Assembly (NCBI GenBank): GCA_041675145.1
Contig: JBAYUK010000001.1
Span: forward strand, 220,057 to 284,056
DNA from: Patescibacteria group bacterium
GTDB taxonomy: Bacteria > Patescibacteriota > JACPGU01
DNA length: 64,000 nt
Reading direction: 5' to 3'
In this document: positions 10,735 through 63,836 of the stretch, piece by piece
How positions within the stretch are numbered: the first letter of the stretch is position 1
Layout: each line of letters opens with the position of its first letter
Notes under the pieces: model-generated
Databases searched by the model: none
Seen by the model: only the letters and a program-made list of their open reading frames with translations
Told to the model about the DNA's origin: nothing
Program-made: the position numbers and the translations under genes

Positions 10735-13700
10735 CTAACTCTTTACCTGAATCTCCCAGTACAATCCAATATCTTTCATCCAATCAACCCCATCTACTAC
10801 TGGAGTAAAGTACGCTTTATATGTACCAGGCTTATCTGGTGCTTTAATACTAAACTGGAATCTGGTATGCCAACCAGGCTCTATTATTGGGTGCATAATA
10901 GTTACAGGACGATTGTTTGACAACCAACTTGCATGTGCAAATTCAGATGCGTAGTCTCGTTGCTGATTGGTTGCACCAAAGGCAGATCCCGTACCAAGCC
11001 TGACAGGATGCTTTCCGACATTAAACCACGGAGTCTTTCCGGTATTTTTAATCTCCACCCACACATTGCTTACCTGTCCTGGCTTCATGACAGCTGGATA
11101 CGGGGATTGCGTAATAAACTGGTAATCATAGAGACGAGGCACTTCATAGCGTATACGCCAACCTGCCACTACAACTTCTGGGTTTGATACCAGACTCGGA
11201 AAGGCGATCTTATTAAGCTCAACTAACCTTTTCCACTGCTCTCTATCTCCATACAACTTTAACGCAATAGTTTTGAGACTATCAAACGGTTGAACAATAT
11301 AGTATGCGATTCCGTCCTCAGCTGAAGTATCAACCACTCCTTCTACTTGACCTACTACTGTTGTACCAGAGGTATAGTCTTTGACGATTATGCCGTTAGC
11401 ACTACCCTGGGCAGTAACAATAGTAAGGGTTGTCTGTGTGAGCCGTATGTGACAGGTATACTTCCATGTTTCGGAAATATCGAGCAAACCGTTATTATTG
11501 ATGTCACCAGACGGGCTAGATAAAGGCGCGCATCCACTATCGGTCACAAGCACGTGCGACAATGGCACCTCGCCAGGATTAGTAACGGTATAGGTATAGT
11601 TAACGACTCCGCCTGCAGCCGGTAATACAGCTGGACTCCTATTTTTCACTACACTAATAACAGGCTGCTGAGGAGTTGCACCAACCGTGAGGGTAAAATC
11701 TGCACTTGCCTGAATAGAAGAACCACCGGCTACTCCAGTAGCAACTACATTACTTTTTGTTGTCTGCGTAACATATGTACTACACGAGAATTCCCAAGTT
11801 TCACTAGCGTCTAGTATGTTGTTACTATTTATATCCCCCGCTATACGAAAAACTGGGCTACATACAGAGTCTGTTACAGCAATAGTACCCACTGGTACGG
11901 TGCTGATATTCTTTACAATATATATATAACTTACTGAACCGGGAACAGACAATGAGTTAGATGGAGTAGCGGATTTTGTAACACTAATCCCTGGAGTAAC
12001 ATTTTGTGGAACATATATACCACCACCAACACTCGTACTAACAGGATTAAGACTCACCGAGATATTCTGTTCTGGTGTGCTGATGAAGTTAGAAGTTGTC
12101 TGCGAGACATACCCTGCGTTACTCGTGCTAAAAGAAAAGGGATTTCTTCCTCCGCTGGTTATAGATAATGAACCGCCGTTACTAATACTAGTAGCAAGAA
12201 TAGGTGTACTTAACGCAGATACCCCAGATATTCCCGTTGTAACCGTTCCGACAAGCTGCTGAAGTGCGTTGCGTATTGTAGTGACTGCTCCATTAATTGG
12301 ACTACTACCCTCTTGTACGGTAGTTTTAACGGTGTAATAAATGTCTAAGTTCCCGGTATTTTGAACATCTAATGCCGAGATAGAAAAGACACTATCTTGC
12401 AACGCATTATTTGCCGTCGTAAGCATAATGACATCTTTTGCGGCACTATTTTGCAAAGTCGAATTTTTAATCACATTACTTGCTGATGTCCCGGTCAAAA
12501 CTACCGCATTATCGTTGTTTGTACTCGTAACTGCTTCAACTATATTATCTGTAGAGTTATGCAATACAATACCTCCGTAGTTGTCGGTAATCACCGTACG
12601 GTGAATAGCTGGCGGAGAAGTATCGCCTGGCTTGACTGAAATACCTTCTGCAGCAGCAGCTGCTGCGTTGTAAGTAAAAACACCATTTGTCACCGTAAAG
12701 ATATTCGGGATATAGTGCTCAACAGTCACCTCACCCGGGTTGGCGCATTGCAAGAATGCACTCGCGCCCGACAGGTAGTTATCCTGTGCAAAAGCAGTAA
12801 GTCGCAACCCCAGATAGTTAACTAAATACAGATTCCAGTTTTGTGGCGTACCTACGAGCGCAGTAATATCATGGTTATTATCTGTAGTAGCATCAAATGG
12901 ACAACTACCTGGAGAGGGAGTTCCTGAAGCAATAAGCATAATATCAGAGCCACCACTCACTGCAGCCCCATCGTCGTACAGATTTACTCCGTCACTCATC
13001 TCAGAATAATCAATTGCATAGGTTGTACTCGTAGGAGAAGTCGAGCCAGTTGTCTTAAGATTCTTAACAGTCGAGTTGGTGAAGTTTGGAAGATATACTG
13101 CATTACTATTCCCACCCGCGTCAAACACCGTCCCTACACCCGCTCCCTGAATCGTTACATTATTAAATGACCCAGTAAGTAGCATCGGGGCGTAAGTTCC
13201 CGCCGCAATATCTACAATATCGCCGTCTTTAAGAATACTACTCAAAAATGTACTAACATTGTTTCCACTAAAGTAGCAAGTAGCGTAGTCGATTGTACAG
13301 CTATCATCAATACTATAGTGTGTTACGCGCGCTGCGGAGAGTACGCCAATATCCTGTGCACCGTTTACATCGAAATAACGGCTCATCGGAGCTGGGTTGT
13401 AATCATCAGCGGTACTGACGTTCTGTGTGCGCAACATAGGATCAGCTGTGGTTGTAGTGGCATCGAGACTCGTAAAAACATTATTCAAGTCAGAAATAGA
13501 TGCTGCTACATGCGAGATACCGTTATATGAATTTGGAATACTTAACGTAACATTCCCAGGAACATAGGTAAGCGCAATGCCGTACCCACTTCCCCCGGGG
13601 GCGGTTGAAGGACTGTAACATAAGTTGTAGTTGACCTGAAGCGTAACAGACGGGTTGCCATGAGACCCATCGTCATACAAACCAAAACAAGTACTACCCG

Positions 13701-14643
13701 AGAGCATTGAGGCATTGGTACCATCGCGCATAATAATAGTATTATGCTCCGCAGTAATAGTCATATCCCCGTCACCAACTCGCAAATTAACTCCCCATGA
13801 GTTACTACTCGCTCCAACAGTCTTTTCCGGGAGGATATAGTAGTTATAGGCAATGTACACTTCAGAGTTACTAAAACTCGTCATCACTGTATAGGTGTCG
13901 TTTTGTACTATCGCAGCATCTATTGTGTTGTTTGTAATATTTATGTTCTCTCCTGCATAAATACTAATATAGTCCCCGGCACTATTTGGTGAGTAGTTTG
14001 AGATATGATTATTGGTAATATCTACATTACTTGAAATAGATGCTGAGTCTGTATAATCAGAGCCGCCGCCAGCAATTGAAGCGCTAATACAACTTTGGTC
14101 AAACCGACAGGTAATGGTGTTGTTGTTAATGACCACGTTATCTGCAGTCTGTAAGCGAATGTTTTGAACTCCGATATTGTTACTTATCTCAATGCCATCA
14201 TCGTTTGTAAGAACAATTTGGCTTTCTGCCGCTGCTGAAATAGTATTTCCGAGCCACTTTACGTTACCTGTGTTACTGGCATCAAAAAAAACATTCTCAA
14301 AAGTACAATTCTGAATAGTGTCATCACCGCTCGGGTTAAGCTGAATTCTTGCACTCGCCTGATCTCCAACAGTATCTGACCCCGGTAAACACTCGAGTGT
14401 AACGCTAACCGGAAGAACAATAGAAGTCCCCTCGTTTGCGTCATTAAAAACATATCCAGCAGTAAGCTGTATGATATCGGCTCCGCCAATACCAGGAGCA
14501 ATAGAAGCGTCATACAGGGACGTAAAATCACAACCACTCGTACAGACAGTATACGTAGTCCCAGCAGCATGAACGCTGCTCGTAAAAGAAAAGAGAGCTA
14601 GTACTACACTAAAAATACAAAAAAGAATTCTACTTTTTTTCAT
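10735..14643 (-). CDS. Giant secreted surface protein: signal peptide, right-handed beta-helix repeats, two DUF11-like repeats, LysM-like segment and C-terminal NBR1-like Ig domain
   Basis: MKKSRILFCIFSVVLALFSFTSSVHA signal. Many N-N-T-I/ITNN beta-helix-like repeats. ASETWEFSCSTYVTQTT and ISETWKYTCHIRLTQTT repeats. YYIVQPFDSLKTIALKLYG (LysM-like). C-terminal KPGQVSNVWVEIKNTGKTPW. Confidence 0.75.
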   Translation of the reverse strand: MKKSRILFCIFSVVLALFSFTSSVHAAGTTYTVCTSGCDFTSLYDASIAPGIGGADIIQLTAGYVFNDANEGTSIVLPVSVTLECLPGSDTVGDQASARIQLNPSGDDTIQNCTFENVFFDASNTGNVKWLGNTISAAAESQIVLTNDDGIEISNNIGVQNIRLQTADNVVINNNTITCRFDQSCISASIAGGGSDYTDSASISSNVDITNNHISNYSPNSAGDYISIYAGENINITNNTIDAAIVQNDTYTVMTSFSNSEVYIAYNYYILPEKTVGASSNSWGVNLRVGDGDMTITAEHNTIIMRDGTNASMLSGSTCFGLYDDGSHGNPSVTLQVNYNLCYSPSTAPGGSGYGIALTYVPGNVTLSIPNSYNGISHVAASISDLNNVFTSLDATTTTADPMLRTQNVSTADDYNPAPMSRYFDVNGAQDIGVLSAARVTHYSIDDSCTIDYATCYFSGNNVSTFLSSILKDGDIVDIAAGTYAPMLLTGSFNNVTIQGAGVGTVFDAGGNSNAVYLPNFTNSTVKNLKTTGSTSPTSTTYAIDYSEMSDGVNLYDDGAAVSGGSDIMLIASGTPSPGSCPFDATTDNNHDITALVGTPQNWNLYLVNYLGLRLTAFAQDNYLSGASAFLQCANPGEVTVEHYIPNIFTVTNGVFTYNAAAAAAEGISVKPGDTSPPAIHRTVITDNYGGIVLHNSTDNIVEAVTSTNNDNAVVLTGTSASNVIKNSTLQNSAAKDVIMLTTANNALQDSVFSISALDVQNTGNLDIYYTVKTTVQEGSSPINGAVTTIRNALQQLVGTVTTGISGVSALSTPILATSISNGGSLSITSGGRNPFSFSTSNAGYVSQTTSNFISTPEQNISVSLNPVSTSVGGGIYVPQNVTPGISVTKSATPSNSLSVPGSVSYIYIVKNISTVPVGTIAVTDSVCSPVFRIAGDINSNNILDASETWEFSCSTYVTQTTKSNVVATGVAGGSSIQASADFTLTVGATPQQPVISVVKNRSPAVLPAAGGVVNYTYTVTNPGEVPLSHVLVTDSGCAPLSSPSGDINNNGLLDISETWKYTCHIRLTQTTLTIVTAQGSANGIIVKDYTSGTTVVGQVEGVVDTSAEDGIAYYIVQPFDSLKTIALKLYGDREQWKRLVELNKIAFPSLVSNPEVVVAGWRIRYEVPRLYDYQFITQSPYPAVMKPGQVSNVWVEIKNTGKTPWFNVGKHPVRLGTGSAFGATNQQRDYASEFAHASWLSNNRPVTIMHPIIEPGWHTRFQFSIKAPDKPGTYKAYFTPVVDGVDWMKDIGLYWEIQVKS

Positions 14644-19785: not shown

Positions 19786-20079
19786 TCATTCAAAGAAATA
19801 CGAGTGGCTACCGATATCAATAAGTATTAAAATTAACTGACTTCTGTCAGTTCTGTATAGCAGTAATACATCACTGCGTATGTGACATTCACGAAATTCT
19901 TGCATATCGCCCTTGAGTTGGTGGTCACGATACTTGCTTGCCAGCTTTTCCCCACGAGCGATCGTACGGATAATATCATTGAGTTCATCTAGTGCCTGTT
20001 GATACTTTCCTGATCGACAAATCTTATTATATGCCTTAACAAATCTTTTTGTTTTAATTTGTTGGTACATCTCAGACAC
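19786..20079 (-). CDS. yafQ: Type II toxin YafQ-like (RelE/ParE superfamily)
   Basis: HQLKGDMQEFRECHIRSDVLLLYRTD...GSHS. 8-bp overlap with the upstream antitoxin. Confidence 0.7.
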   Translation of the reverse strand: MSEMYQQIKTKRFVKAYNKICRSGKYQQALDELNDIIRTIARGEKLASKYRDHQLKGDMQEFRECHIRSDVLLLYRTDRSQLILILIDIGSHSYFFE

Positions 20080-20347
20080 CTAAATCCTTAATAAACTCTT
20101 CAACATCAGTATATACCTTTCCCTCTCGTAATGTCTCCTCGACCTCTTTCTTTAAACGCACAGCAAGCGCTTTTTGCTCAGCCCTAGAAGTAGGCTTTCG
20201 AGAGGGCAAAAAAGGCAAGGCCTGATCATGTACCGCCTGCTGAAAGAACACTTTAATTGCAGTAGACATGTCCATCCCTAGGCCAGCAAAGGTTTTTTGC
20301 GCCTCTTTTTTCAGCGATTCATCAATACGAACATTGAGAGTGGTCAT
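20072..20347 (-). CDS. dinJ: Type II antitoxin DinJ/RelB family
   Basis: MTTLNVRIDESLKKEAQKTFAGLGMDMSTAIKVFFQQAV. Confidence 0.7.
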   Translation of the reverse strand: MTTLNVRIDESLKKEAQKTFAGLGMDMSTAIKVFFQQAVHDQALPFLPSRKPTSRAEQKALAVRLKKEVEETLREGKVYTDVEEFIKDLGV

Positions 20348-20413: not shown

Positions 20414-21486
20414 CTATTCATACCACATGTTCTCGATTTTTTGACCGAGTTCAAAGGTATCTGCATGGCTTAGGACTCCTCGGTACGACTGCATTGTTTG
20501 CAGTAGCTTTTTCTCAACTATCTTTCCGTTTCTATACTCATCCAACTTGTGTCGAATATTTCTAATAATTCGTTGTCGTGTCTTACTTCGAACGAGTCTG
20601 TGGGTCGGAAACACTACATACCCTAGAAAATCTATTCCTTGAGAAAACTTACGAATACTGGTCTTATGCGGGTGAAGTGTGAGTCGCAACTGGTTATGTA
20701 AGAAGCTATTTAGTACTGGGGTTAGCTCCATAAGATACGCCTGGCTATCTGAGACAATCACGAAGTCATCGGTATAGCGCACATAGTTCTTGATACGCAA
20801 GGTATGTTTCACAAACTGATCAAATTCATTCATGTAGATATTGGCGAACAACTGAGATGTGAGGTTTCCAATAGGTATACCTGTTTTTCGGGAGCCCTCC
20901 TTACTCTCTCTCTCTCTCTCTCTCTCTCGAAGGTGCCTACCTGAAGGCTATAGCTTTGGATAATATTCTGGATCAACTGAAGAGCCCGCAAATCAGTGAT
21001 GCGTTTCGAGATAATATCAAATAAGATGTCATGATCGACTGAATCAAAGAATTTACGAACATCACATTTTAGAGCAAAGCATGGGCGAGTGTTGTTACGC
21101 GATACTGAACGCAACATATTCTCAAGAACCGCTACTCCCCGGTGAGTGCCAAAACCTATGCGACAAGAAAAAGATGTGGCTATAAATGTCGGTTCAAAGA
21201 TAGAGTTTAAAACTCTAAACAACGCGTGATGCACTACCCGATCCCGAACTTGAGCTTTATGAATATGTCGCTGTTTGGGATCCTGGATATAAAATCCTTG
21301 ATAAGGCCCGTGCTGATAAGTTTCGCTTTTAAGCTCGCTATAAAGGGCAAATAAGTTTTGCTCTATATCTTTTTCAAAAGCTATCACATCTTCCTTGTGC
21401 CTCTTATCATGTCGGAATTCTTCCCATGATAGAAAGAGATTTGGTACTGAAATAATGGTATGATAGATTTTGGAAAATTTCTGCAT
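20414..21486 (-). pseudogene. DGR reverse transcriptase, interrupted by a +1/-2 frameshift inside a (TC)12 tract
   Basis: N-terminal segment (frame of 20830-21501) has RT motifs 1-3 (FALKCDVRKFFDSVDH). C-terminal frame reads ...GIPIGNLTSQLFANIYMNEF...YVRYTDDFVI (DGR-specific I/LGxxxSQ plus YxDD). The two frames meet in the GA/TC repeat. Confidence 0.8.
20904..20928. repeat. Dinucleotide microsatellite (CT)12C on plus, (GA) on the coding strand, inside the RT gene
   Basis: ttaCTCTCTCTCTCTCTCTCTCTCTCTCga counted directly. Confidence 0.95.
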
Positions 21487-21508
21487 ACTAATAATATACA
21501 ATATCCCA

Positions 21509-21856
21509 ATGGACCACTTCGATATACCCTTATTTAAAAAGTCATACGACCTGTATAAAACACTGTATGGGTACCGTCTTGCTGTACCAAAACTAGATCG
21601 CTATGGTATCTGGCAAAAGACCGAGAATACCTTACTAGAAGTAATCGAACACGTACTCCTTGCAAGTCAAAAAGCAAAACAAGAAAAGATCTCCCATCTA
21701 GAACAAGCAAGCTCAAGCCTGAACCTTCTTCGTGTTTTTATCCGCCTCATGAAAGACACGAAGGCACTGGACATGAAAAAGTACCTCATACTAGAAGTAG
21801 CCATTGAAGAGATAGGCCGCATGCTTGGTGGCTGGATAAAGTCTACAAAAGAATAA
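21509..21856 (+). CDS. avd: DGR accessory variability determinant (Avd), four-helix-bundle family
   Basis: MDHFDIPLFKKSYDLYK... and C-terminal LEVAIEEIGRMLGGWIKSTKE resemble Bordetella bAvd (..IAEVGRILGSWI..). ATG at 21509. Alternative TTG at 21470. Confidence 0.7.
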   Translation: MDHFDIPLFKKSYDLYKTLYGYRLAVPKLDRYGIWQKTENTLLEVIEHVLLASQKAKQEKISHLEQASSSLNLLRVFIRLMKDTKALDMKKYLILEVAIEEIGRMLGGWIKSTKE

Positions 21857-22335: not shown

Positions 22336-23151
22336 TTAGGGGTTCAAGGACTCAAGAGCCTTCGTAAACTTCCGGGAGGACGACACGCCCACATCGTCGC
22401 CGCGGTAACTGCCCCAGTAGCTGTCGACATCGAGACCGCCGCCATCAAAGCTGCCAATGCGGACAAGGCTGCCGCCCGAATCGATGGAAGCCGTCCTGGC
22501 ATAGAGCTTCATAAAGATCCGCTCCCCAGTGGCCAAGAAATGGCCGATGATGGTATACACCATCACCTGAGCGGTGGGAACTTCTTCGAGCTCCTTGTCC
22601 AGAAGCTCACCTTGCTCGCTCCAGTTTTTAGCAAGCGATCCTGGCACCTCGTCCTTGCGGACCAAGTACCACCCAACGGTTCCTTTTTCTTGAGCAAAAG
22701 CCTGGGAATTGTACCAGGCATCCTCATGCCGATAGAAGAGCGCTCTCTCGACTCTGGACCTTATATCCAGAATGGAGAGCGGAAAAACAGCCACGAGAAT
22801 GTGGGTTGTCTTACACGCACGCAACTCCTCTTCAGAGTACGGCACTTCTTCCAGAGTCTGCAACTCTTCAAGGGTAGGAGTAATGCCGAAGTGTTTTGTG
22901 GCCTCTTCCACCCCGAAGTAGTTGCTTCCCATAATCCTGCGTGCCTTCACCTGGGATTGTGAGGACTTGCTCGTCATGGCAATGAATTCGACAGCCCTTC
23001 GGGCAGCCTCACCCATCATTTCCTGGAAAATATCACTGTTGACGACTGCCAACTGTGCGTTTTCCTTGCTCGTTTCTGCCAAGCCTTGCTTGGCGCCGAT
23101 CTCGGCCAACTGACCGAGTTTGTCTTTCTGTCCGGATGTGATCAATTTCAT
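22336..23151 (-). CDS. DGR target (variable) protein with C-terminal VR
   Basis: C-terminus ...IDSGGSLVRIGSFDGGGLDVDSYWGSYRGDDVGVSSSRKF aligns with the TR-encoded peptide. AAGGAGG RBS. Confidence 0.8.
   Translation of the reverse strand: MKLITSGQKDKLGQLAEIGAKQGLAETSKENAQLAVVNSDIFQEMMGEAARRAVEFIAMTSKSSQSQVKARRIMGSNYFGVEEATKHFGITPTLEELQTLEEVPYSEEELRACKTTHILVAVFPLSILDIRSRVERALFYRHEDAWYNSQAFAQEKGTVGWYLVRKDEVPGSLAKNWSEQGELLDKELEEVPTAQVMVYTIIGHFLATGERIFMKLYARTASIDSGGSLVRIGSFDGGGLDVDSYWGSYRGDDVGVSSSRKFTKALESLNP
22368..22485 (-). repeat. DGR variable repeat (VR) at the 3' end of the target gene
   Basis: Offset +466 from the TR, no indels. 3'-proximal 27 nt (plus 22368-22394) identical to the TR and GC-rich (IMH-like). 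Confidence 0.85.
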
Positions 23152-25991: not shown

Positions 25992-26246
25992 CTATTTATT
26001 ATAAACATCTCTCCTGTGCCCAGCTTTTAGCACAATAATACACTCACCCACAATGTCAAAAAAAACACGGTAGTCGCCAATACGAAACTTAAATGTACCA
26101 AGCTCAGGATCAAGTAATCTCTCGGCGTGCCGGTAAGGATCAGCCAGATTCCGAACAAGCGTTTTGTCTATTCTTTTCCGAACTACAAAATCAAGTTTCT
26201 GTATTTGCTTGAGAGCTCTATTTGTATACTGATATTCGTATGCCAT
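25992..26246 (-). CDS. Type II toxin, RelE/ParE family
   Basis: FKFRIGDYRVFFDIVGECIIVLKAGHRRDVY. Confidence 0.7.
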   Translation of the reverse strand: MAYEYQYTNRALKQIQKLDFVVRKRIDKTLVRNLADPYRHAERLLDPELGTFKFRIGDYRVFFDIVGECIIVLKAGHRRDVYNK

Positions 26247-26251
26247 AAGAC

Positions 26252-26497
26252 CTACCCAAAAACCTCTTCGTGAGAATGCAACTTACCTTGCTTTGCCTCA
26301 AGGCGAGCGGCACGAATATCCGCAAGAAATTCTGGTGAAGACAGCGCCAACAGATCCTCAAAATAGTCCAGATTAATCAAAGCTGAGACTGCTTTTCCTT
26401 TATTGGTGATTACGAAGTACTTCTCTTTTTCGTTTACCAAACGAATAGCATCTGCAATGTTATCACGAAACGCCGATGTGGTAAGTGTTTTTTCCAT
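26252..26497 (-). CDS. Type II antitoxin, Phd/YefM family
   Basis: MEKTLTTSAFRDNIADAIRLVNEKEKYFVITNKGKAVSALINLDYFEDLL. Confidence 0.7.
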   Translation of the reverse strand: MEKTLTTSAFRDNIADAIRLVNEKEKYFVITNKGKAVSALINLDYFEDLLALSSPEFLADIRAARLEAKQGKLHSHEEVFG

Positions 26498-26513
26498 ATA
26501 ATGAAATTTAATA

Positions 26514-26545
26514 GTACAAATTAATTGTACAACAGATTCGTACAA
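26514..26545 (-). promoter_or_regulatory. Three GTACAA (TTGTAC on the coding strand) direct repeats upstream of phd, candidate TA operator
   Basis: gtacaa at 26514, 26526 and 26540, spacing 12 and 14. Confidence 0.4.
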
Positions 26546-26665
26546 TGTCAACTATAAGATTGATCACACCTGTTTCTCTCTCTTATTATAGAAGCACCAG
26601 CAGATAATCAACATCCATATCATATGGTATATGTCAAGTATATTTAATGAATATATAGAATATAT

Positions 26666-35016: not shown

Positions 35017-35134
35017 CTTCTAAATAAGAAACTATAAAAATGTATGAATTTTGTACATGATAAAAAAGTACAAAGGTCGGTTCACCCGACCCTCGAGGAA
35101 CCCTGAAAGGGGTTCCGTTTTTTTATACTTACGC

Positions 35135-35485
35135 CTACAACTCCGCTCCCTTAAGCGTAAACACTCCAAGAAAGACGTAGGGCAGAAGGAACAGAAGAAA
35201 CGGAGTGAGAGCAAGAAGGGCTGTGATCGTCTCGTAGCGAGCAATATCCTTCTCGTCTATATCCTGGGCACTATGAATACCAAAAAATATAGATCCAGCA
35301 TACGCTCCAGCACAAATAAGAGCAAAAGTGAAAAGCACAGGCACAAAGAGGGGCTTATACAACATCGGTGTTATAAAGGCTGAGAAAATAGATGAGAAGA
35401 TTAGCCAGAGAGCACAAGCGAAGTTCAGTATAAACGAGAAGAGAGCTTTTCTTTTGATCTGCGCTATTTTTATTTCATTCTTCAT
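35135..35485 (-). CDS. Hypothetical membrane protein
   Basis: 3-4 TM helices. Confidence 0.5.
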   Translation of the reverse strand: MKNEIKIAQIKRKALFSFILNFACALWLIFSSIFSAFITPMLYKPLFVPVLFTFALICAGAYAGSIFFGIHSAQDIDEKDIARYETITALLALTPFLLFLLPYVFLGVFTLKGAEL

Positions 35486-35501: not shown

Positions 35502-35837
35502 TTATTCTTTTTCATCTACTCCAGTAAGAAACACTCTCATTTCAAAACCACCTCTTTTTTCTTTTTTATCAGTGCGTTTCTTCTCTATATCTTCCCATAC
35601 TATACCATAGTTAGTAGCAATTGCCTGAAGTACTTCAAGACAGTCGGCCAACTCCTCCCCGACCCCCCCCTGATCTTGTGCACCCTTTACTTCACCTGCT
35701 TCTTCTAGTAGCTTATCTTTGAGCATCTCACTATATTCTTCTACTGTAAGAATTCTTGTATGAGGCGTCTCTCCACCTGAGATAATCTTCTCAGGAATAC
35801 GGTCACGAACTAGTTTGTTGTATTCTTTGTATGGCAT
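35502..35837 (-). CDS. MazG-like nucleotide pyrophosphohydrolase
   Basis: KLVRDRIPE ... EELADCLEVL all-alpha NTP-PPase motifs. Confidence 0.7.
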   Translation of the reverse strand: MPYKEYNKLVRDRIPEKIISGGETPHTRILTVEEYSEMLKDKLLEEAGEVKGAQDQGGVGEELADCLEVLQAIATNYGIVWEDIEKKRTDKKEKRGGFEMRVFLTGVDEKE

Positions 35838-35974
35838 AAAATATTAGAGAGATAGATCTTTAAGATACTGAGCAAACTCTGTGCCAGTCTGCTCATGCTG
35901 CAGATCAGTTCATACTGTAATTTTACCATACTCTCTAAGTCTCATACTAAAAACTGCAAATTGCAGTAAAAAAA

Positions 35975-36003
35975 CTTGACTTTTTCACCATTTCCTGTAC
36001 ACT
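35975..36003 (+). promoter_or_regulatory. Promoter-like TTGACT-N16-TACACT on the plus strand
   Basis: Followed about 30 nt later by a terminator hairpin, enclosing a possible transcript of about 60 nt. Confidence 0.3.
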
Positions 36004-36032
36004 AGAAAGTACAAATGGCCTTTTGGCTCCGG

Positions 36033-36066
36033 AGACCCCACCCCTCAAAGGTGGGGATCGTCTGTT
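36033..36066 (+). terminator. Plus-strand terminator hairpin abutting the mazF stop
   Basis: ccccacccc-tcaaa-ggtgggg + atcgtctgtttt. Confidence 0.45.
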
Positions 36067-36453
36067 TTATAGACACACCTCCCTAGTTTTCAATTTAATA
36101 TCCTCAAATAAGTCCTCATTAATTTTTCTAATTTTTCTTGTGAGTCTCTTTGTACTTATTAATCGTAACTGTGAGAGTATTACGGCAAACTGCTTTCCGT
36201 CATGCTCAAAAATATAATGGAACTTATCTTCTTTCACCTTTGAAGTGAGTGGCACAACCATAACAACTGATCGGTTGAACTTTTTTAGTATCAAAACTGG
36301 TCTCTCGAATAGATCATTTTTCCCATCTTGCTCGTACCCAATATTAATACCAAGCGAACACCACCAAATCTCACGCTCGTGAACATAGGCAACAAACTCA
36401 CTAGTCTGTATATCCTTTTTTCTATTATTCCAAGTATCGAAATCTTTATGCAT
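36067..36453 (-). CDS. mazF: MazF/PemK-family endoribonuclease toxin (no cognate antitoxin ORF adjacent)
   Basis: RPVLILKKFNRSVVMVVPLTSK..., similar to EndoA/MazF. Confidence 0.7.
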   Translation of the reverse strand: MHKDFDTWNNRKKDIQTSEFVAYVHEREIWWCSLGINIGYEQDGKNDLFERPVLILKKFNRSVVMVVPLTSKVKEDKFHYIFEHDGKQFAVILSQLRLISTKRLTRKIRKINEDLFEDIKLKTREVCL

Positions 36454-36531
36454 TTTTGTTTTACTACATCACTAGTAAAGAAAACCCATAAGCATGTGAA
36501 TTGCCGCTCTGCCCTAGTCTTTTGTACATTC

Positions 36532-36556
36532 AACTGTCCGATTTTATCGGACAATT
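36532..36556. promoter_or_regulatory. Inverted repeat TGTCCGAT-N3-ATCGGACA upstream of mazF (operator candidate)
   Basis: 8-bp perfect arms, extendable with one mismatch. Confidence 0.4.
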
Positions 36557-36563
36557 GAACTTT

Positions 36564-36782
36564 CTATTTCAACCGGTGACATTTTGTCACCACTTCACTT
36601 CCTTCTTCTCTCAGCCTCTGAGCAAGCTTATTCCAATACTTTCTTGCCGCTAAATCGTCAGCTTGATCTGTTAGCGACTGTACCACATCCACTACTGAAA
36701 ACCACCACTCGTTGCTATAAATAACCTTACGAATCTTAGTACCTTTGAAGAGAACAATTTTGTTTGTGTCCGTAGTAATAAA
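36564..36782 (-). pseudogene. N-terminal fragment of a DinD-like (DNA-damage-inducible protein D) gene, no start codon
   Basis: Minus-strand frame reads KIRKVIYSNEWWFSVVDVVQSLTD...ARKYWNKLAQRLREEGSEVVTKCHRLK then stop. Resembles the DinD-type EWWFS...YW..L motif block. Begins right after a stop codon. Confidence 0.35.
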
Positions 36783-36788
36783 TTACTA

Positions 36789-37271
36789 TTAATTCTTTTT
36801 CTTAACCGTCTTTTGCTTGAGTACCTCTCGTACCGTGTTTAGCTGCTCTAAAGTTAATGCTCGCTTTGGAATAGGGAGTGTTGGTGACTTCATAACATAC
36901 AAGACGATAAAGTCTTTTGTCTCAGTAAACTTCTTCGATAGCTGCCATTTTATCTTTGAGTTGATTAAGTCCGTCTTCATCTCCCAGCCTTCGTCATCAA
37001 GAGTTACTTGCTGCCCTGTATTCATCTTCTTGTTCTTACTGTACCCAATACGACGAGCCACCCATAGCATAAGAAACAAGACGAGAGATGAAAGAATTAA
37101 AGAGATCAAAAAGTCTATATAGTGAAATCCATCGTCTTTAATATGGGTGATAATGTTTATAACAAGGAGAATTAGGTATACATTCCTCATTTTGTTTTGC
37201 AACATAATACTCGTTACTTGCAACAGTTCTTTTTTAGTATAGGTAAAACTTAATGAGATGGGTTGAATCAT
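36789..37271 (-). CDS. Hypothetical membrane protein (YcxB-like)
   Basis: Two TM helices followed by a soluble domain. Confidence 0.45.
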   Translation of the reverse strand: MIQPISLSFTYTKKELLQVTSIMLQNKMRNVYLILLVINIITHIKDDGFHYIDFLISLILSSLVLFLMLWVARRIGYSKNKKMNTGQQVTLDDEGWEMKTDLINSKIKWQLSKKFTETKDFIVLYVMKSPTLPIPKRALTLEQLNTVREVLKQKTVKKKN

Positions 37272-63596: not shown

Positions 63597-63836
63597 CTAA
63601 GTATCGTAGTGTAATTTTAAAAACTCACTTTTTGTAATCTTAAGATCTCGAAGGTATTTACTCATCATACCAGCAGAGATCGTGCGCCCTGAGTGAAAAG
63701 ATATCGTTAAGATGAGGCCATACTGATTAATATATTGCCGGTGACTTCCTTTTTGTCGAATAAAAAAATAGCCGAGCTTATGTACGACCTTTTCCATATC
63801 CTTCGCAGTAAGACTTGGACTATGCTGGCTGGCCAT
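63597..63836 (-). CDS. hicA: HicA-family toxin (YcfA-like mRNA interferase)
   Basis: KVVHKLGYFFIRQKGSHRQY motif. Confidence 0.6.
   Translation of the reverse strand: MASQHSPSLTAKDMEKVVHKLGYFFIRQKGSHRQYINQYGLILTISFHSGRTISAGMMSKYLRDLKITKSEFLKLHYDT

What the first reader, a model, noticed from the sequence alone, without database searches (positions are those of the whole stretch)
35975..36560. Orphan MazF toxin with no MazE, a palindromic operator, and a promoter/terminator-bounded mini-transcript at its 3' end
mazF (36067-36453) has no antitoxin-sized ORF upstream (36454-36788) or downstream. A TGTCCGAT-N3-ATCGGACA palindrome sits in its promoter region. On the opposite strand, a consensus-like promoter (TTGACT-N16-TACACT) and a hairpin plus T-tract terminator enclose a roughly 60-nt transcript ending exactly at the mazF stop. 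This could be a small RNA regulator or antitoxin, or MazF is neutralised in trans.
Basis: partly seen in the sequence, partly recalled or inferred. Interest (0 to 1): 0.5.

Follow-up and report, generated by a model that had tools for sequence, protein, structure and literature searches.

The report
MazF toxin paired with small RNA
A MazF-type RNA-cutting toxin gene with no protein antidote is always followed by a tiny conserved RNA gene pointing back at it, in hundreds of ultra-small bacteria and on Campylobacter plasmids. The RNA is most likely the missing antidote.

Summary
ORF 36067-36453(-) is a genuine MazF-fold protein: PF02452 E 1e-13, AlphaFold model closest to S. aureus and B. subtilis MazF, catalytic Arg51 and Thr70 kept. 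It has no MazE.

Across 80 related loci, mostly Patescibacteria, no neighbouring protein is conserved. In 78 of 80, and in the window, a ~56-nt small-RNA gene sits on the opposite strand directly after the stop codon. It has:
- a near-consensus sigma-70 promoter (TTGACa-N16/17-TAtAcT; 73/79 score at least 9/12, against 6% of random windows);
- a conserved 5' tail (U)ACAAAU;
- hairpin P1, a conserved YCCGA linker, and a GC-rich hairpin P2 with strong covariation;
- a U-tract that overlaps the toxin's stop codon.

An RNA-motif-only scan of metagenomes returned 12 loci, and all 12 had a convergent MazF-like gene. Diverged versions occur on Campylobacterota plasmids and prophages, including pVir.

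No Rfam family matches. I read this as a MazF-plus-sRNA toxin-antitoxin module. The sRNA is the inferred antitoxin, acting either by binding the protein (type III-like) or as a 3' antisense (type I-like). The "palindromic operator" is real but not conserved.

The parts
36067..36453 (-). mazF-like toxin gene (128 aa). It belongs to a MazF subfamily with an extra N-terminal helix carrying the invariant motif FDxWNxxKK. Catalytic Arg51 and Thr70 are kept, and the beta1-beta2 loop NxGxExDGKxxxFERP is invariant.
   Evidence: PF02452 E 1.1e-13. The profile aligns to B. subtilis EndoA with R25 and T48 matched. AF2 model pLDDT 85, with all top Foldseek PDB hits being MazF.
35976..36003 (+). Promoter of the small RNA: -35 TTGACT (35976-35981), 16-nt spacer, -10 TACACT (35998-36003). 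The inferred start is about 36010-36011.
   Evidence: for the window. Across 79 copies the -35 is T94 T94 G89 A84 C93 A54 % and the -10 is T98 A96 T70 A72 C56 T98 %. 73/79 score at least 9/12, against 6.2% of random windows.
36010..36068 (+). Small RNA of about 58 nt.
- 5' tail GUACAAAU (36009-36016)
- P1 GGCC/UUUU/GGCU (36017-36028)
- linker CCGGA (36029-36033; family consensus YCCGA)
- P2 36034-36059 (GACCCCACC / GGUGGGGAUC, loop CCUCAAA)
- G, then a U-tract ending at 36068, inside the mazF stop codon (36067-36069)
   Evidence: Fold -23.8 kcal/mol. Covariance model R1 scores window 35999-36071(+) at 59.9 bits, E 3e-11. Covariation: 92.6% of cells paired and 173 double-change cells against 44 +/- 5.7 in shuffles, 0/500. 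All 79 copies fold as two hairpins.
35953..35967 (-). Terminator-like hairpin ACTGCAATTTGCAGT plus TTTTT on the mazF strand, beyond the sRNA promoter. If used, the mazF mRNA carries a 3' UTR of about 110 nt fully complementary to the sRNA. This feature is window-specific.
   Evidence: A comparable mazF-strand terminator is present in only 7 of 79 related loci.
35057..35128 (+). Second, weaker copy of the same sRNA class (GUACAAAGG, P1, CUCGAGG, P2, U7). It has a poor -35 and ends 8 nt before the stop of an ORFan 116-aa membrane ORF (35135-35485, minus strand). It may be an orphan or relic antitoxin.
   Evidence: R1 35.3 bits, E 4e-6 with filters off. Sequence. The ORF has no homologues. There is no mazF relic nearby.
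36529..36559 (.). Palindrome TTCAACTGTCCGAT-TTT-ATCGGACAATTGAA. It is context, not a conserved part of the module, and its function is open.
   Evidence: It is not conserved in related loci.
36564..36764 (-). Start-less, truncated N-terminal fragment (66 codons plus stop) of a Bro-N / PADLOC PDC-S13-type gene. It is a pseudogene remnant, not an antitoxin.

Best explanation
mazF (36067-36453, minus strand) and the convergent ~58-nt sRNA gene (promoter 35976-36003, RNA about 36010-36068, plus strand) form one two-gene toxin-antitoxin module. The sRNA replaces MazE.

Shown:
- The protein is a MazF-fold endoribonuclease with intact catalytic residues.
- It never has a conserved protein neighbour.
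- The sRNA gene, with a strong constitutive-type promoter, two covarying hairpins and an intrinsic terminator, is co-inherited with it at a fixed position and orientation in nearly every relative.

Inferred mechanism (my first choice): the abundant sRNA binds the MazF dimer directly and blocks its RNA groove, like a type III antitoxin.
- Two rigid hairpins, mostly capped by UNCG or GNRA tetraloops, would present invariant single-stranded segments to the toxin.
- These segments are the 5' (U)ACAAAU tail, which resembles MazF sites such as UACAU and ACA, and the YCCGA linker.
- On the protein side, the equally invariant beta1-beta2 loop and the family-specific basic N-terminal helix would read them.
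- If the module is lost or sRNA synthesis stops, the unstable RNA decays and the RNase is freed.

The convergent, stop-codon-abutting layout would add transcriptional or antisense damping of mazF as a second layer.
For: - MazF identity and likely activity.
- No conserved protein neighbour in 81 loci: the largest neighbour cluster covers 6 loci and consists of housekeeping genes. No MazE-type ORF in the window.
- sRNA present in 78/80 loci plus the window, always antisense to mazF. In 60/78 its 3' end overlaps the last 2-9 nt of the ORF.
- Promoter conservation. Two-hairpin fold in 79/79. After P2 there are 5.2 U in 10 nt on the sRNA strand against 1.3 on the other strand.
- Covariation.
- Reverse test: an RNA-motif-only metagenome scan gave 12 loci, and all 12 carry a convergent MazF-like ORF.
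- For protein binding rather than pure antisense:
  - Unpaired positions AAAU, CCGA and G are at least 90% conserved although the proteins are about 50% identical.
  - P1 loops are 33/79 UNCG or GNRA and P2 loops 46/79, so they are structural rather than kissing loops.
  - The sRNA overlaps the CDS by only 0-3 nt.
  - There is no sRNA:5'-region or 3'UTR:5' pairing signal.
  - The N-terminal motif FDxWNxxKK is invariant wherever a convergent sRNA is seen, including the Campylobacterota elements.
  - The Nitratiruptor plasmid copy keeps the 5' UAUAAAU tail and the P1-linker-P2 layout.
Against: - No expression, toxicity or binding data exist for any Patescibacterial member.
- The strict convergent abutment to the stop codon is kept even where the sRNA sequence has completely changed (pVir, H. 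suis, CJIE4). An antisense mechanism would require this layout; a protein-binding decoy would not.
- The one experimentally studied RNA antitoxin on pVir (CjrA) is described as an antisense, type I antitoxin (PMC10470494, PMC7826846). It may be this very sRNA.
- G.U against A.C counts do not by themselves fix the strand (30 vs 20, p 0.2).
- The UAC of the 5' tail is variable (GGUAAAU, UAUAAAU).
- Known type III antitoxins are tandem repeats on the toxin's strand. This is a single convergent gene.
Confidence: 0.4

Rival explanations
1. Same module and same role (RNA antitoxin), but acting as a cis-encoded antisense RNA (type I-like). mazF transcription reads through the P2 hairpin, which has no U-tract on that strand. 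The mazF mRNA 3' UTR is then perfectly complementary to the sRNA. Duplex formation up to the stop codon would trigger RNase III cleavage and 3'-to-5' decay. Convergent transcription from the strong sRNA promoter would add interference.
For: - Convergent layout with the sRNA terminator overlapping the stop codon in 60/78 loci, also in Campylobacterota despite sequence turnover.
- No U-tract after P2 on the mazF strand: 1.3 T in 10 nt.
- The window has a mazF-strand terminator only beyond the sRNA gene.
- Precedents: CjrA is described as an antisense type I antitoxin on pVir of C. jejuni 81-176 (PMC10470494, PMC7826846). That plasmid carries a member of this MazF subfamily with a convergent sRNA. 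From my own knowledge: par/fst RNA I-RNA II, txpA/RatA and bsrG/SR4.
Against: - Cis-antisense pairing needs no sequence conservation, yet the unpaired motifs are at least 90% conserved.
- The loops are stable tetraloops rather than kissing loops.
- Overlap with the CDS is 0-3 nt, so translation is not directly blocked.
- A dedicated mazF-strand terminator beyond the sRNA is seen in only 7/79 loci.
- MazF is a catalytic toxin, for which leaky mRNA-level control alone seems risky (inference).
- The identity CjpT = pVir PemK-like protein was not verified.
Confidence: 0.33
2. The MazF-like protein is not a toxin under antitoxin control. It is a domesticated sequence-specific RNase, and the sRNA is its substrate, cofactor or regulator. 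For example, it might process the sRNA, or the sRNA might target or tune it.
For: - The gene sits among housekeeping genes, often apparently co-transcribed with them.
- It is very widespread in the reduced genomes of Patescibacteria: at least 564 species-level loci and 1374 clusters at 50% identity.
- The invariant RNA motifs and the invariant protein loop are equally compatible with a substrate relationship.
Against: - The genomic location differs in almost every genome, which is typical of mobile, selfish modules.
- Homologues lie on small plasmids next to rep or mob genes and as morons in prophages.
- Decayed or frameshifted copies occur.
- A two-gene unit with a strong antisense promoter is the hallmark of RNA-antitoxin TA loci.
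Confidence: 0.15
3. MazF is neutralised in trans by an unlinked protein (an unlinked MazE, or a recruited regulator as MrpC is for Myxococcus MazF-mx). The sRNA would be an unrelated or merely regulatory neighbour.
For: - Solitary mazF-mx with the surrogate antitoxin MrpC is a documented precedent (PMC4803016, PMC2701414).
- Only 64 kb of this genome could be searched.
Against: - It does not explain the 78/80 and 12/12 coupling of the sRNA with mazF.
- The pair travels on 5.8-27 kb plasmids that encode no MazE-like protein next to it.
- There is no MazE, PemI or AbrB ORF in the window.
Confidence: 0.08
4. The element is not an RNA gene. It would be just a terminator or 3'-UTR hairpin of mazF with a chance promoter-like sequence.
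For: In the window alone the promoter match (9/12) and the hairpin (z -2.3) are unremarkable.
Against: - The promoter hexamers, spacing and distance to the RNA are conserved in 73/79 loci.
- The U-tract is on the opposite strand to mazF.
- P1 and the single-stranded motifs are conserved with covariation.
Confidence: 0.03

Closest known systems
CjrA/CjpT of Campylobacter jejuni 81-176 plasmid pVir (Shen et al. 2016, Mol Microbiol 101:909; cited in PMC7826846 and PMC10470494)
   Same: - An experimentally supported RNA antitoxin (the antisense sRNA CjrA) for a protein toxin on pVir.
- pVir carries a member of the same MazF subfamily (37% identity, same FDxWNxxKK N-terminus).
- Downstream of it lies a convergent TTGATT-N17-TATAAT promoter and a structured sRNA whose terminal GC hairpin abuts the stop codon.
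   Different: - I could not read the paper, so whether CjpT is this PemK/MazF-like ORF is a lead and not a result.
- The pVir sRNA is longer and shares no recognisable sequence with the Patescibacterial sRNA: model R1 and Rfam both give no hit.
- The authors class the system as type I.
Type III toxin-antitoxin systems (ToxIN, CptIN, TenpIN)
   Same: - An endoribonuclease toxin neutralised by a small structured RNA.
- The antitoxin is made in excess.
- No protein antitoxin.
- Found on mobile elements.
   Different: - The toxin here is PF02452 MazF/PemK, not ToxN, CptN or TenpN.
- The antitoxin is a single-copy gene with its own promoter on the opposite strand, downstream. It is not a tandem-repeat array upstream on the same strand separated by a terminator. 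Only 2 loci have two tandem copies.
- Direct binding is untested.
Type I systems with convergent, 3'-overlapping or terminator-sharing RNAs (par fst RNA I/RNA II of pAD1; txpA/RatA and bsrG/SR4 of B. subtilis). Recalled from my own knowledge.
   Same: Convergent toxin mRNA and antitoxin RNA meeting at a shared hairpin, with a strong antitoxin promoter.
   Different: - Those toxins are small hydrophobic peptides. This one is a 128-aa soluble RNase.
- The sRNA here lies wholly outside the CDS.
- Its unpaired nucleotides are strongly conserved.
- No 5' complementarity was found.
Type II MazEF / PemIK
   Same: Toxin fold, catalytic Arg and Thr, and size.
   Different: - No MazE or PemI gene in any of 81 loci.
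- An extra N-terminal helix.
- No conserved operator.
Solitary MazF-mx of Myxococcus xanthus with MrpC as surrogate antitoxin (PMC4803016)
   Same: A mazF without a linked mazE.
   Different: There the neutraliser is an unlinked protein in a single lineage. Here a linked RNA gene is conserved family-wide.
Rfam 'pemK RNA motif' (Weinberg et al. 2017, PMC5737381; named in the DecoyFinder preprint, doi 10.1101/2024.10.12.618037)
   Same: By its name, a structured RNA candidate associated with pemK genes in Firmicutes. Its details are recalled only vaguely.
   Different: - No Rfam 15 model, pemK included, matches the window or 14 related loci even at permissive E-values.
- The arrangement and function of that motif could not be checked: the paper's main text does not mention it and no supplement is held.

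Membership tests
MazF/PemK toxin family (PF02452) | Sequence match to the PemK_toxin profile above the gathering score | tested here: met
   51.7 bits against a cut-off of 23.1, E 1.1e-13
MazF/PemK toxin family (PF02452) | MazF/Kid SH3-like barrel fold with the catalytic Arg (EndoA R25) and Thr/Ser (EndoA T48) | tested here: met
   AF2 pLDDT 85. Foldseek top 50 are all MazF, TM 0.6-0.77. R51 is invariant and T70/S71 lie in PLT[ST]K.
MazF/PemK toxin family (PF02452) | Sequence-specific endoribonuclease activity and toxicity | not testable with these tools
   Needs expression and cleavage assays
Type II MazEF/PemIK module | Adjacent, usually upstream, co-transcribed protein antitoxin (MazE/PemI, AbrB or RHH fold) | tested here: not met
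   No such ORF in the window. No conserved neighbouring protein in 81 loci.
Type II MazEF/PemIK module | Autoregulatory operator palindrome bound by the antitoxin-toxin complex | tested here: not met
   The window palindrome is not conserved. The distribution of upstream inverted repeats is close to that of control windows.
Type III TA (ToxIN/CptIN/TenpIN) | Toxin of the ToxN, CptN or TenpN families | tested here: not met
   Only PF02452 is hit. There is no PADLOC hit. Structural neighbours are MazF.
Type III TA (ToxIN/CptIN/TenpIN) | Antitoxin encoded as tandem direct repeats upstream of the toxin on the same strand, followed by a terminator | tested here: not met
   No direct repeats in 35800-36900. 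The sRNA is single-copy, downstream and on the opposite strand.
Type III TA (ToxIN/CptIN/TenpIN) | RNA antitoxin binds and inhibits the toxin protein directly | not testable with these tools
   Inferred only from conserved unpaired motifs and tetraloop-capped hairpins
Type I TA | Antitoxin is an antisense RNA that base-pairs with the toxin mRNA | tested here: inconclusive
   The sRNA is cis-encoded and convergent. Overlap with the CDS is 0-3 nt. Full complementarity requires mazF read-through, which is plausible because no U-tract follows P2 on that strand, but the transcript ends are unknown. There is no pairing to the 5' region.
Type I TA | Toxin is a small (under about 60 aa) hydrophobic peptide | tested here: not met
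   A 128-aa soluble MazF-fold protein. Exceptions such as SymE and RalR exist (own knowledge; SymE in PMC1891008).
Patescibacterial mazF-associated sRNA (family defined here, model R1) | Sigma-70 promoter, 5' AAAU tail, P1, YCCGA linker, P2 and a U-tract abutting the stop codon of a convergent mazF | tested here: met
   Window 35999-36071(+) scores 59.9 bits, E 3e-11. Every element is present.
Any Rfam 15 family | Covariance-model match | tested here: not met
   No hit at the gathering score in the window. No relevant hit at E up to 10 in 35800-36800, nor in 14 related loci.

The most novel reading that the evidence does not exclude
A previously unclassified, very widespread toxin-antitoxin architecture. 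A bona fide MazF-fold RNase is neutralised not by MazE but by a dedicated ~56-nt two-hairpin sRNA. The sRNA is transcribed convergently from a consensus promoter and binds the toxin as a pseudo-substrate. This would in effect be a fourth, MazF-based type III family, or a type I/III hybrid. It would be dominant in Patescibacteria (CPR) and present on Campylobacterota plasmids and prophages. It would also explain the many MazF/PemK genes annotated 'type II' that lack an antitoxin.
Probability: 0.4. Interest if true: 0.85.

Novelty: new variant of a known kind. Interest (0 to 1): 0.72.

Why it matters
- **Annotation.** MazF/PemK genes of this subfamily are annotated automatically as type II toxins. 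The subfamily comprises at least 1374 clusters at 50% identity and at least 564 species-level genomes, yet these genes have no protein antitoxin. The data give a concrete, testable partner: an unannotated sRNA absent from Rfam.
- **Classification.** If the sRNA is the antitoxin, the MazF fold can be controlled by RNA. This would link type II MazF to the structurally related type III ToxN, and it would blur the type I / type III boundary.
- **Biology of CPR bacteria.** It would be one of the very few conserved regulatory sRNAs known in Patescibacteria, organisms with minimal genomes and few tractable systems.
- **Wider relevance.** The Campylobacter pVir and CJIE4 relatives connect it to plasmid maintenance and prophage biology in a pathogen.
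- **Testability.** The module is about 0.55 kb and easy to test heterologously.

Tried and rejected
- **Hidden MazE upstream.** The three-frame translation of 36454-36800(-) shows only a truncated Bro-N/PDC-S13 fragment.
- **MazE elsewhere in the window.** 33 small ORFs were scanned against Pfam. Only RelB and Phd/YefM were found, each paired with its own toxin.
- **Conserved protein neighbour.** All-against-all BLASTP of flanking ORFs in 81 loci found none.
- **Known RNA family.** Rfam at gathering and permissive thresholds, on the window and 14 loci, found none.
- **tRNA or att remnant.** ARAGORN found none near the site.
- **Small ORF in the sRNA (MAFWLRRPH...).** The AUG is present in only 62/79 copies and the frame of the conserved linker varies 22/22/6. 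Rejected.
- **sRNA pairing with the mazF 5' region.** Cognate -21.0 against non-cognate -21.3 kcal/mol, p 0.72. Rejected.
- **hok-like fold-back of the 3' UTR on the 5' end.** p 0.34. Rejected.
- **Strand assignment from G.U against A.C pairs.** 30 vs 20, not significant. The strand rests on the promoter, the U-tract and the energy asymmetry.
- **Depletion of sRNA motifs in mazF coding sequences as a hint to cleavage specificity.** CCGAG is 5 observed against 16.4 expected, but many unrelated 5-mers look equally depleted under codon shuffling of a homologous family. Inconclusive.
- **The 116-aa ORF next to the second sRNA copy as another toxin family.** It is an ORFan, and there is no mazF relic there.
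- **MazG-like gene downstream as a mazEFG analogue.** It is not conserved in other loci and is only sub-threshold in Pfam.
- **Verifying that CjpT is the pVir PemK-like protein.** The paper is not held and the cluster names are uninformative.
- **Details of the Rfam pemK motif.** They are not in the held text.
Full report
**1. What is in the window**

- ORF 36067-36453(-) encodes a 128-aa protein matching Pfam PemK_toxin (PF02452, E 1.1e-13). The identical protein is deposited as a PemK/MazF family toxin of a Patescibacteria MAG.
- A family profile aligns it with B. subtilis EndoA/YdcE. The catalytic Arg (R25 to R51) and Thr (T48 to T70) correspond.
- An AlphaFold2 model (pLDDT 85) shows a MazF barrel with an extra N-terminal helix (residues 5-17) and a C-terminal helix. 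Its 50 best PDB neighbours are all MazF proteins.
- Upstream there is no MazE. The only open frame (36567-36764, minus strand) has no start codon. It is the first ~66 residues of a ~286-aa Bro-N/PADLOC PDC-S13-type protein.
- Among 33 small ORFs in the whole 64-kb window, none belongs to a MazE, PemI or AbrB family. Two canonical TA pairs (YafQ/RelB, ParE/Phd) and a HicA are present.
- The palindrome is real and longer than reported: 14-nt arms at 36529-36559.
- The plus-strand promoter-like site TTGACT-N16-TACACT (35976-36003) and a hairpin followed by GUCUGUUUU ending in the mazF stop codon are also present.
- Judged on this window alone these RNA signals are weak. The promoter scan finds fewer sites than in shuffles, and the hairpin z-score is -2.3.

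**2. The orphan state is a family trait**

- The protein has 2331 relatives in the 90%-clustered database. It has 1374 clusters at 50% identity with E up to 1e-10, nearly all aligned from residue 1-5.
- A scan of species-representative genomes found at least 564 loci, and I fetched 80 of them. Most are Patescibacteria of many lineages.
- All-against-all comparison of every ORF within 2.5 kb found no conserved neighbour. The largest cluster covers 6 of 81 loci and consists of housekeeping genes.
- The family is defined by an N-terminal extension with invariant FDxWNxxKK and an invariant beta1-beta2 region NxGxExDGKxxxFERP.

**3. The mini-transcript is a conserved sRNA gene**

nhmmer with the 130 nt downstream of the window's mazF hit 20 loci, always at the same place. 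Reading the opposite strand of all loci showed the same layout almost everywhere:

- a strong promoter;
- about 7 nt later, (U)ACAAAUGG;
- a short hairpin P1;
- the linker YCCGAGA;
- a GC-rich hairpin P2 whose sequence differs from locus to locus;
- CGUUUUUAU running into the mazF stop codon.

The supporting numbers are as follows.

- **MAFFT alignment of 54 copies (A3):** 88.9% of cells paired, and 12 of 14 pairs show compensatory changes. There are 83 double-change cells against 23.8 +/- 4.2 in shuffles (0/500). Slid controls give 36-62% paired.
- **Covariance model R1:** it finds the element in 78 of 80 loci and in the window (35999-36071, plus strand, 59.9 bits, E 3e-11), always antisense to mazF.
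- **Model-based alignment (A4):** 92.6% of cells pair, with 173 double-change cells against 44 +/- 5.7 (0/500). An alignment fitted to the model leans towards the structure, but the independent MAFFT result agrees.
- **Position:** in 60 of 78 loci the 3' end of the hit overlaps the last 2-9 nt of the ORF.
- **Promoter:** -35 is T94 T94 G89 A84 C93 A54 %, -10 is T98 A96 T70 A72 C56 T98 %, spacer 16-17. 73/79 score at least 9/12, against 6.2% of random windows from the same loci.
- **Fold:** all 79 copies fold into exactly two hairpins, with a median length of 56 nt.
- **Strand:** the sRNA strand folds better than its complement (Wilcoxon 3e-7). The U-tract follows P2 only on that strand, 5.2 against 1.3 T in 10 nt. 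Wobble-pair counts alone do not settle the strand (30 G.U vs 20 A.C).
- **Coding potential:** the AUG inside AAAUGG is absent from 17 of 79 copies, and its frame relative to the linker is not conserved, so the RNA is non-coding.
- **Rfam:** no Rfam 15 family matches.

**4. The coupling holds from the RNA side too**

A metagenome scan with an RNA-only pattern (ACAAATGGCCNNNNGGCCNCCGAGA) returned 12 contigs. All 12 carry a MazF-like ORF on the opposite strand ending 40-60 nt from the motif. Two of these ORFs are degenerate.

**5. Beyond Patescibacteria**

tblastn found members of the same subfamily, with the N-terminal motif intact, in several places:

- a 27-kb Nitratiruptor plasmid;
- a 5.8-kb Helicobacter suis plasmid;
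- C. jejuni 81-176 pVir;
- CJIE4 prophages, lying between the terminase and portal genes;
- a Lacticaseibacillus plasmid.

In the Nitratiruptor, H. suis, pVir and CJIE4 elements the opposite strand downstream carries a good -10 or -35/-10. It also carries a structured RNA whose terminal GC hairpin abuts the stop codon. The Lacticaseibacillus flank was not clear enough to call either way. The Nitratiruptor copy keeps the 5' UAUAAAU tail and the P1-linker-P2 plan. The others have diverged beyond model R1 and Rfam.

pVir of strain 81-176 is the plasmid on which an antisense sRNA antitoxin, CjrA, was shown to control the toxin CjpT (Shen et al. 2016, as cited in PMC7826846 and PMC10470494). I could not read that paper. 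That CjpT is this PemK-like ORF is a strong lead, not a result.

**6. How it most likely works**

*Shown.* The unit is a two-gene one: a MazF-fold RNase with intact catalytic residues, and a highly expressed-looking, terminator-bounded sRNA. It is co-inherited at a fixed geometry, sits in a different chromosomal place in almost every genome, and occurs on plasmids and prophages. This is the signature of a toxin-antitoxin module whose antitoxin is RNA.

*Inferred.* The mode of neutralisation.

I favour direct binding, type III-like (0.40), for these reasons:

- The unpaired nucleotides (AAAU, CCGA, and the G after P2) are at least 90% conserved while the proteins are only ~50% identical. A cis-antisense RNA does not need this.
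- The hairpins are mostly capped by UNCG or GNRA tetraloops, which suggests a structural scaffold rather than kissing loops.
- The sRNA lies outside the CDS.
- There is no complementarity between the sRNA, or the 3' UTR, and the mazF 5' region. Many mazF genes look leaderless.
- The protein side shows a matching invariant RNA-recognition loop and a family-specific basic helix.
- The 5' tail often reads UACAAAU, which resembles MazF sites.

The antisense, type I-like alternative (0.33) is supported by:

- the rigid convergent abutment to the stop codon, kept even where the sRNA sequence has turned over;
- the lack of a U-tract after P2 on the mazF strand, so mazF transcripts should read through and become complementary to the whole sRNA;
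- the window's mazF-strand terminator lying beyond the sRNA gene;
- the published description of CjrA.

Both layers may operate together. Less likely alternatives are a domesticated RNase with the sRNA as substrate or cofactor (0.15), a protein antitoxin in trans as for Myxococcus MazF-mx/MrpC (0.08), and no RNA gene at all (0.03).

**7. The palindrome and other local features**

- The palindrome is not part of the conserved module. nhmmer with the upstream 340 nt finds nothing.
- Upstream inverted repeats in the family resemble control windows.
- In 57 of 78 loci the upstream gene is on the same strand, often within 60 nt.
- In the window the palindrome sits 5 nt after the stop of the Bro-N fragment. 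On the plus strand it is followed by a T-rich run, so it might stop antisense read-through. This is speculation.
- A second, weaker copy of the sRNA lies at 35057-35128(+) (35.3 bits). It is convergent with an ORFan membrane ORF and has no mazF relic nearby. It may be an orphan or relic antitoxin.
- Two other loci carry tandem sRNA duplicates, and one carries a degenerate extra copy.

**8. Comparison with the known, and novelty**

- As a protein, it is a member of the MazF/PemK family.
- As a system, it fails the defining tests of type II MazEF: no protein antitoxin and no operator.
- It fails the tests for the three type III families: the wrong toxin family, no tandem repeats, and the wrong strand and side.
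- It is atypical for type I: a large soluble enzyme toxin, with the sRNA outside the CDS.
- The nearest experimentally studied relative is probably CjrA/CjpT.
- The Patescibacterial sRNA family itself is absent from Rfam. To the extent that ten full-text searches could show, it is undescribed.

I rate it a new variant of a known kind: an RNA-antitoxin TA system built on a MazF toxin.

**9. Verdict**

The sRNA is established by comparative genomics. Its antitoxin role and its mechanism remain to be tested. The decisive experiment is rescue of a 3'-UTR-less mazF by the sRNA in trans.

Noticed in passing
window 35057-35128 (+): A second, weaker copy of the mazF-associated sRNA (R1 35.3 bits) with a poor -35. 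It ends 8 nt before the stop of an ORFan 116-aa membrane ORF (35135-35485, minus strand). No mazF relic lies nearby. It may be an orphan or relic antitoxin.
   Followed up: partly
window 20414-21856: A bAvd-like ORF (21470-21856 +, PF22296 E 5e-18) sits next to two minus-strand ORFs (20414-20851 and 20830-21501) that look like a split reverse transcriptase (…YTDDFVIV…). This is a probable diversity-generating retroelement. The target gene was not identified; candidates are the 1302-aa ORF 10735-14643 and ORF 22336-23151.
   Followed up: no
window 19786-20347; 25992-26551; 63597-63836: Canonical protein-protein TA modules are present in the same window: YafQ-type toxin with RelB/DinJ antitoxin, ParE-type toxin with Phd/YefM antitoxin, and a HicA toxin at the window edge. 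The genome therefore uses ordinary type II pairs alongside the MazF-sRNA module.
   Followed up: partly
window 36564-36764 (-): A start-less, truncated N-terminal fragment (about 66 of 286 residues) of a Bro-N / PADLOC PDC-S13 candidate defence gene lies directly upstream of mazF. The rest of the gene is missing, so the locus has been rearranged.
   Followed up: partly
window 35502-35837 (-): A MazG-like, all-alpha NTP pyrophosphohydrolase-like gene (sub-threshold Pfam hits) lies downstream of mazF on the same strand. This recalls E. coli mazEFG, but it is not conserved next to mazF in the other 80 loci.
   Followed up: partly
L024 4372-4534; L026 4386-4608; L015 3883-3948: Two related loci carry two tandem sRNA genes, each with its own promoter, downstream of mazF. 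One locus has a degenerate extra copy between the stop of an rpoC-like gene and the mazF start.
   Followed up: partly
L082 2486-2946 (C. jejuni pTet-type plasmids; also hits H3-H30): The Campylobacter pTet-type conjugative plasmid inspected carries a frameshifted, stop-interrupted copy of this mazF subfamily. About 30 similar plasmids match in three separate BLAST pieces, which suggests the same decay. The copies are annotated as short hypothetical proteins or not annotated at all.
   Followed up: partly
L073 (NZ_JAMRYX010000026.1, Methylocystis suflitae NLS-7): A contig of an alphaproteobacterial isolate assembly carries a typical Patescibacteria-type mazF-sRNA module (R1 60.4 bits). This could be horizontal transfer or a contaminating CPR contig.
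   Followed up: no
several loci, e.g. L012, L017, L022, L026 (40 nt upstream of mazF): Many mazF genes of the family have a TATAAT-like box ending about 7 nt before the start codon. This suggests leaderless mRNAs.
   Followed up: no
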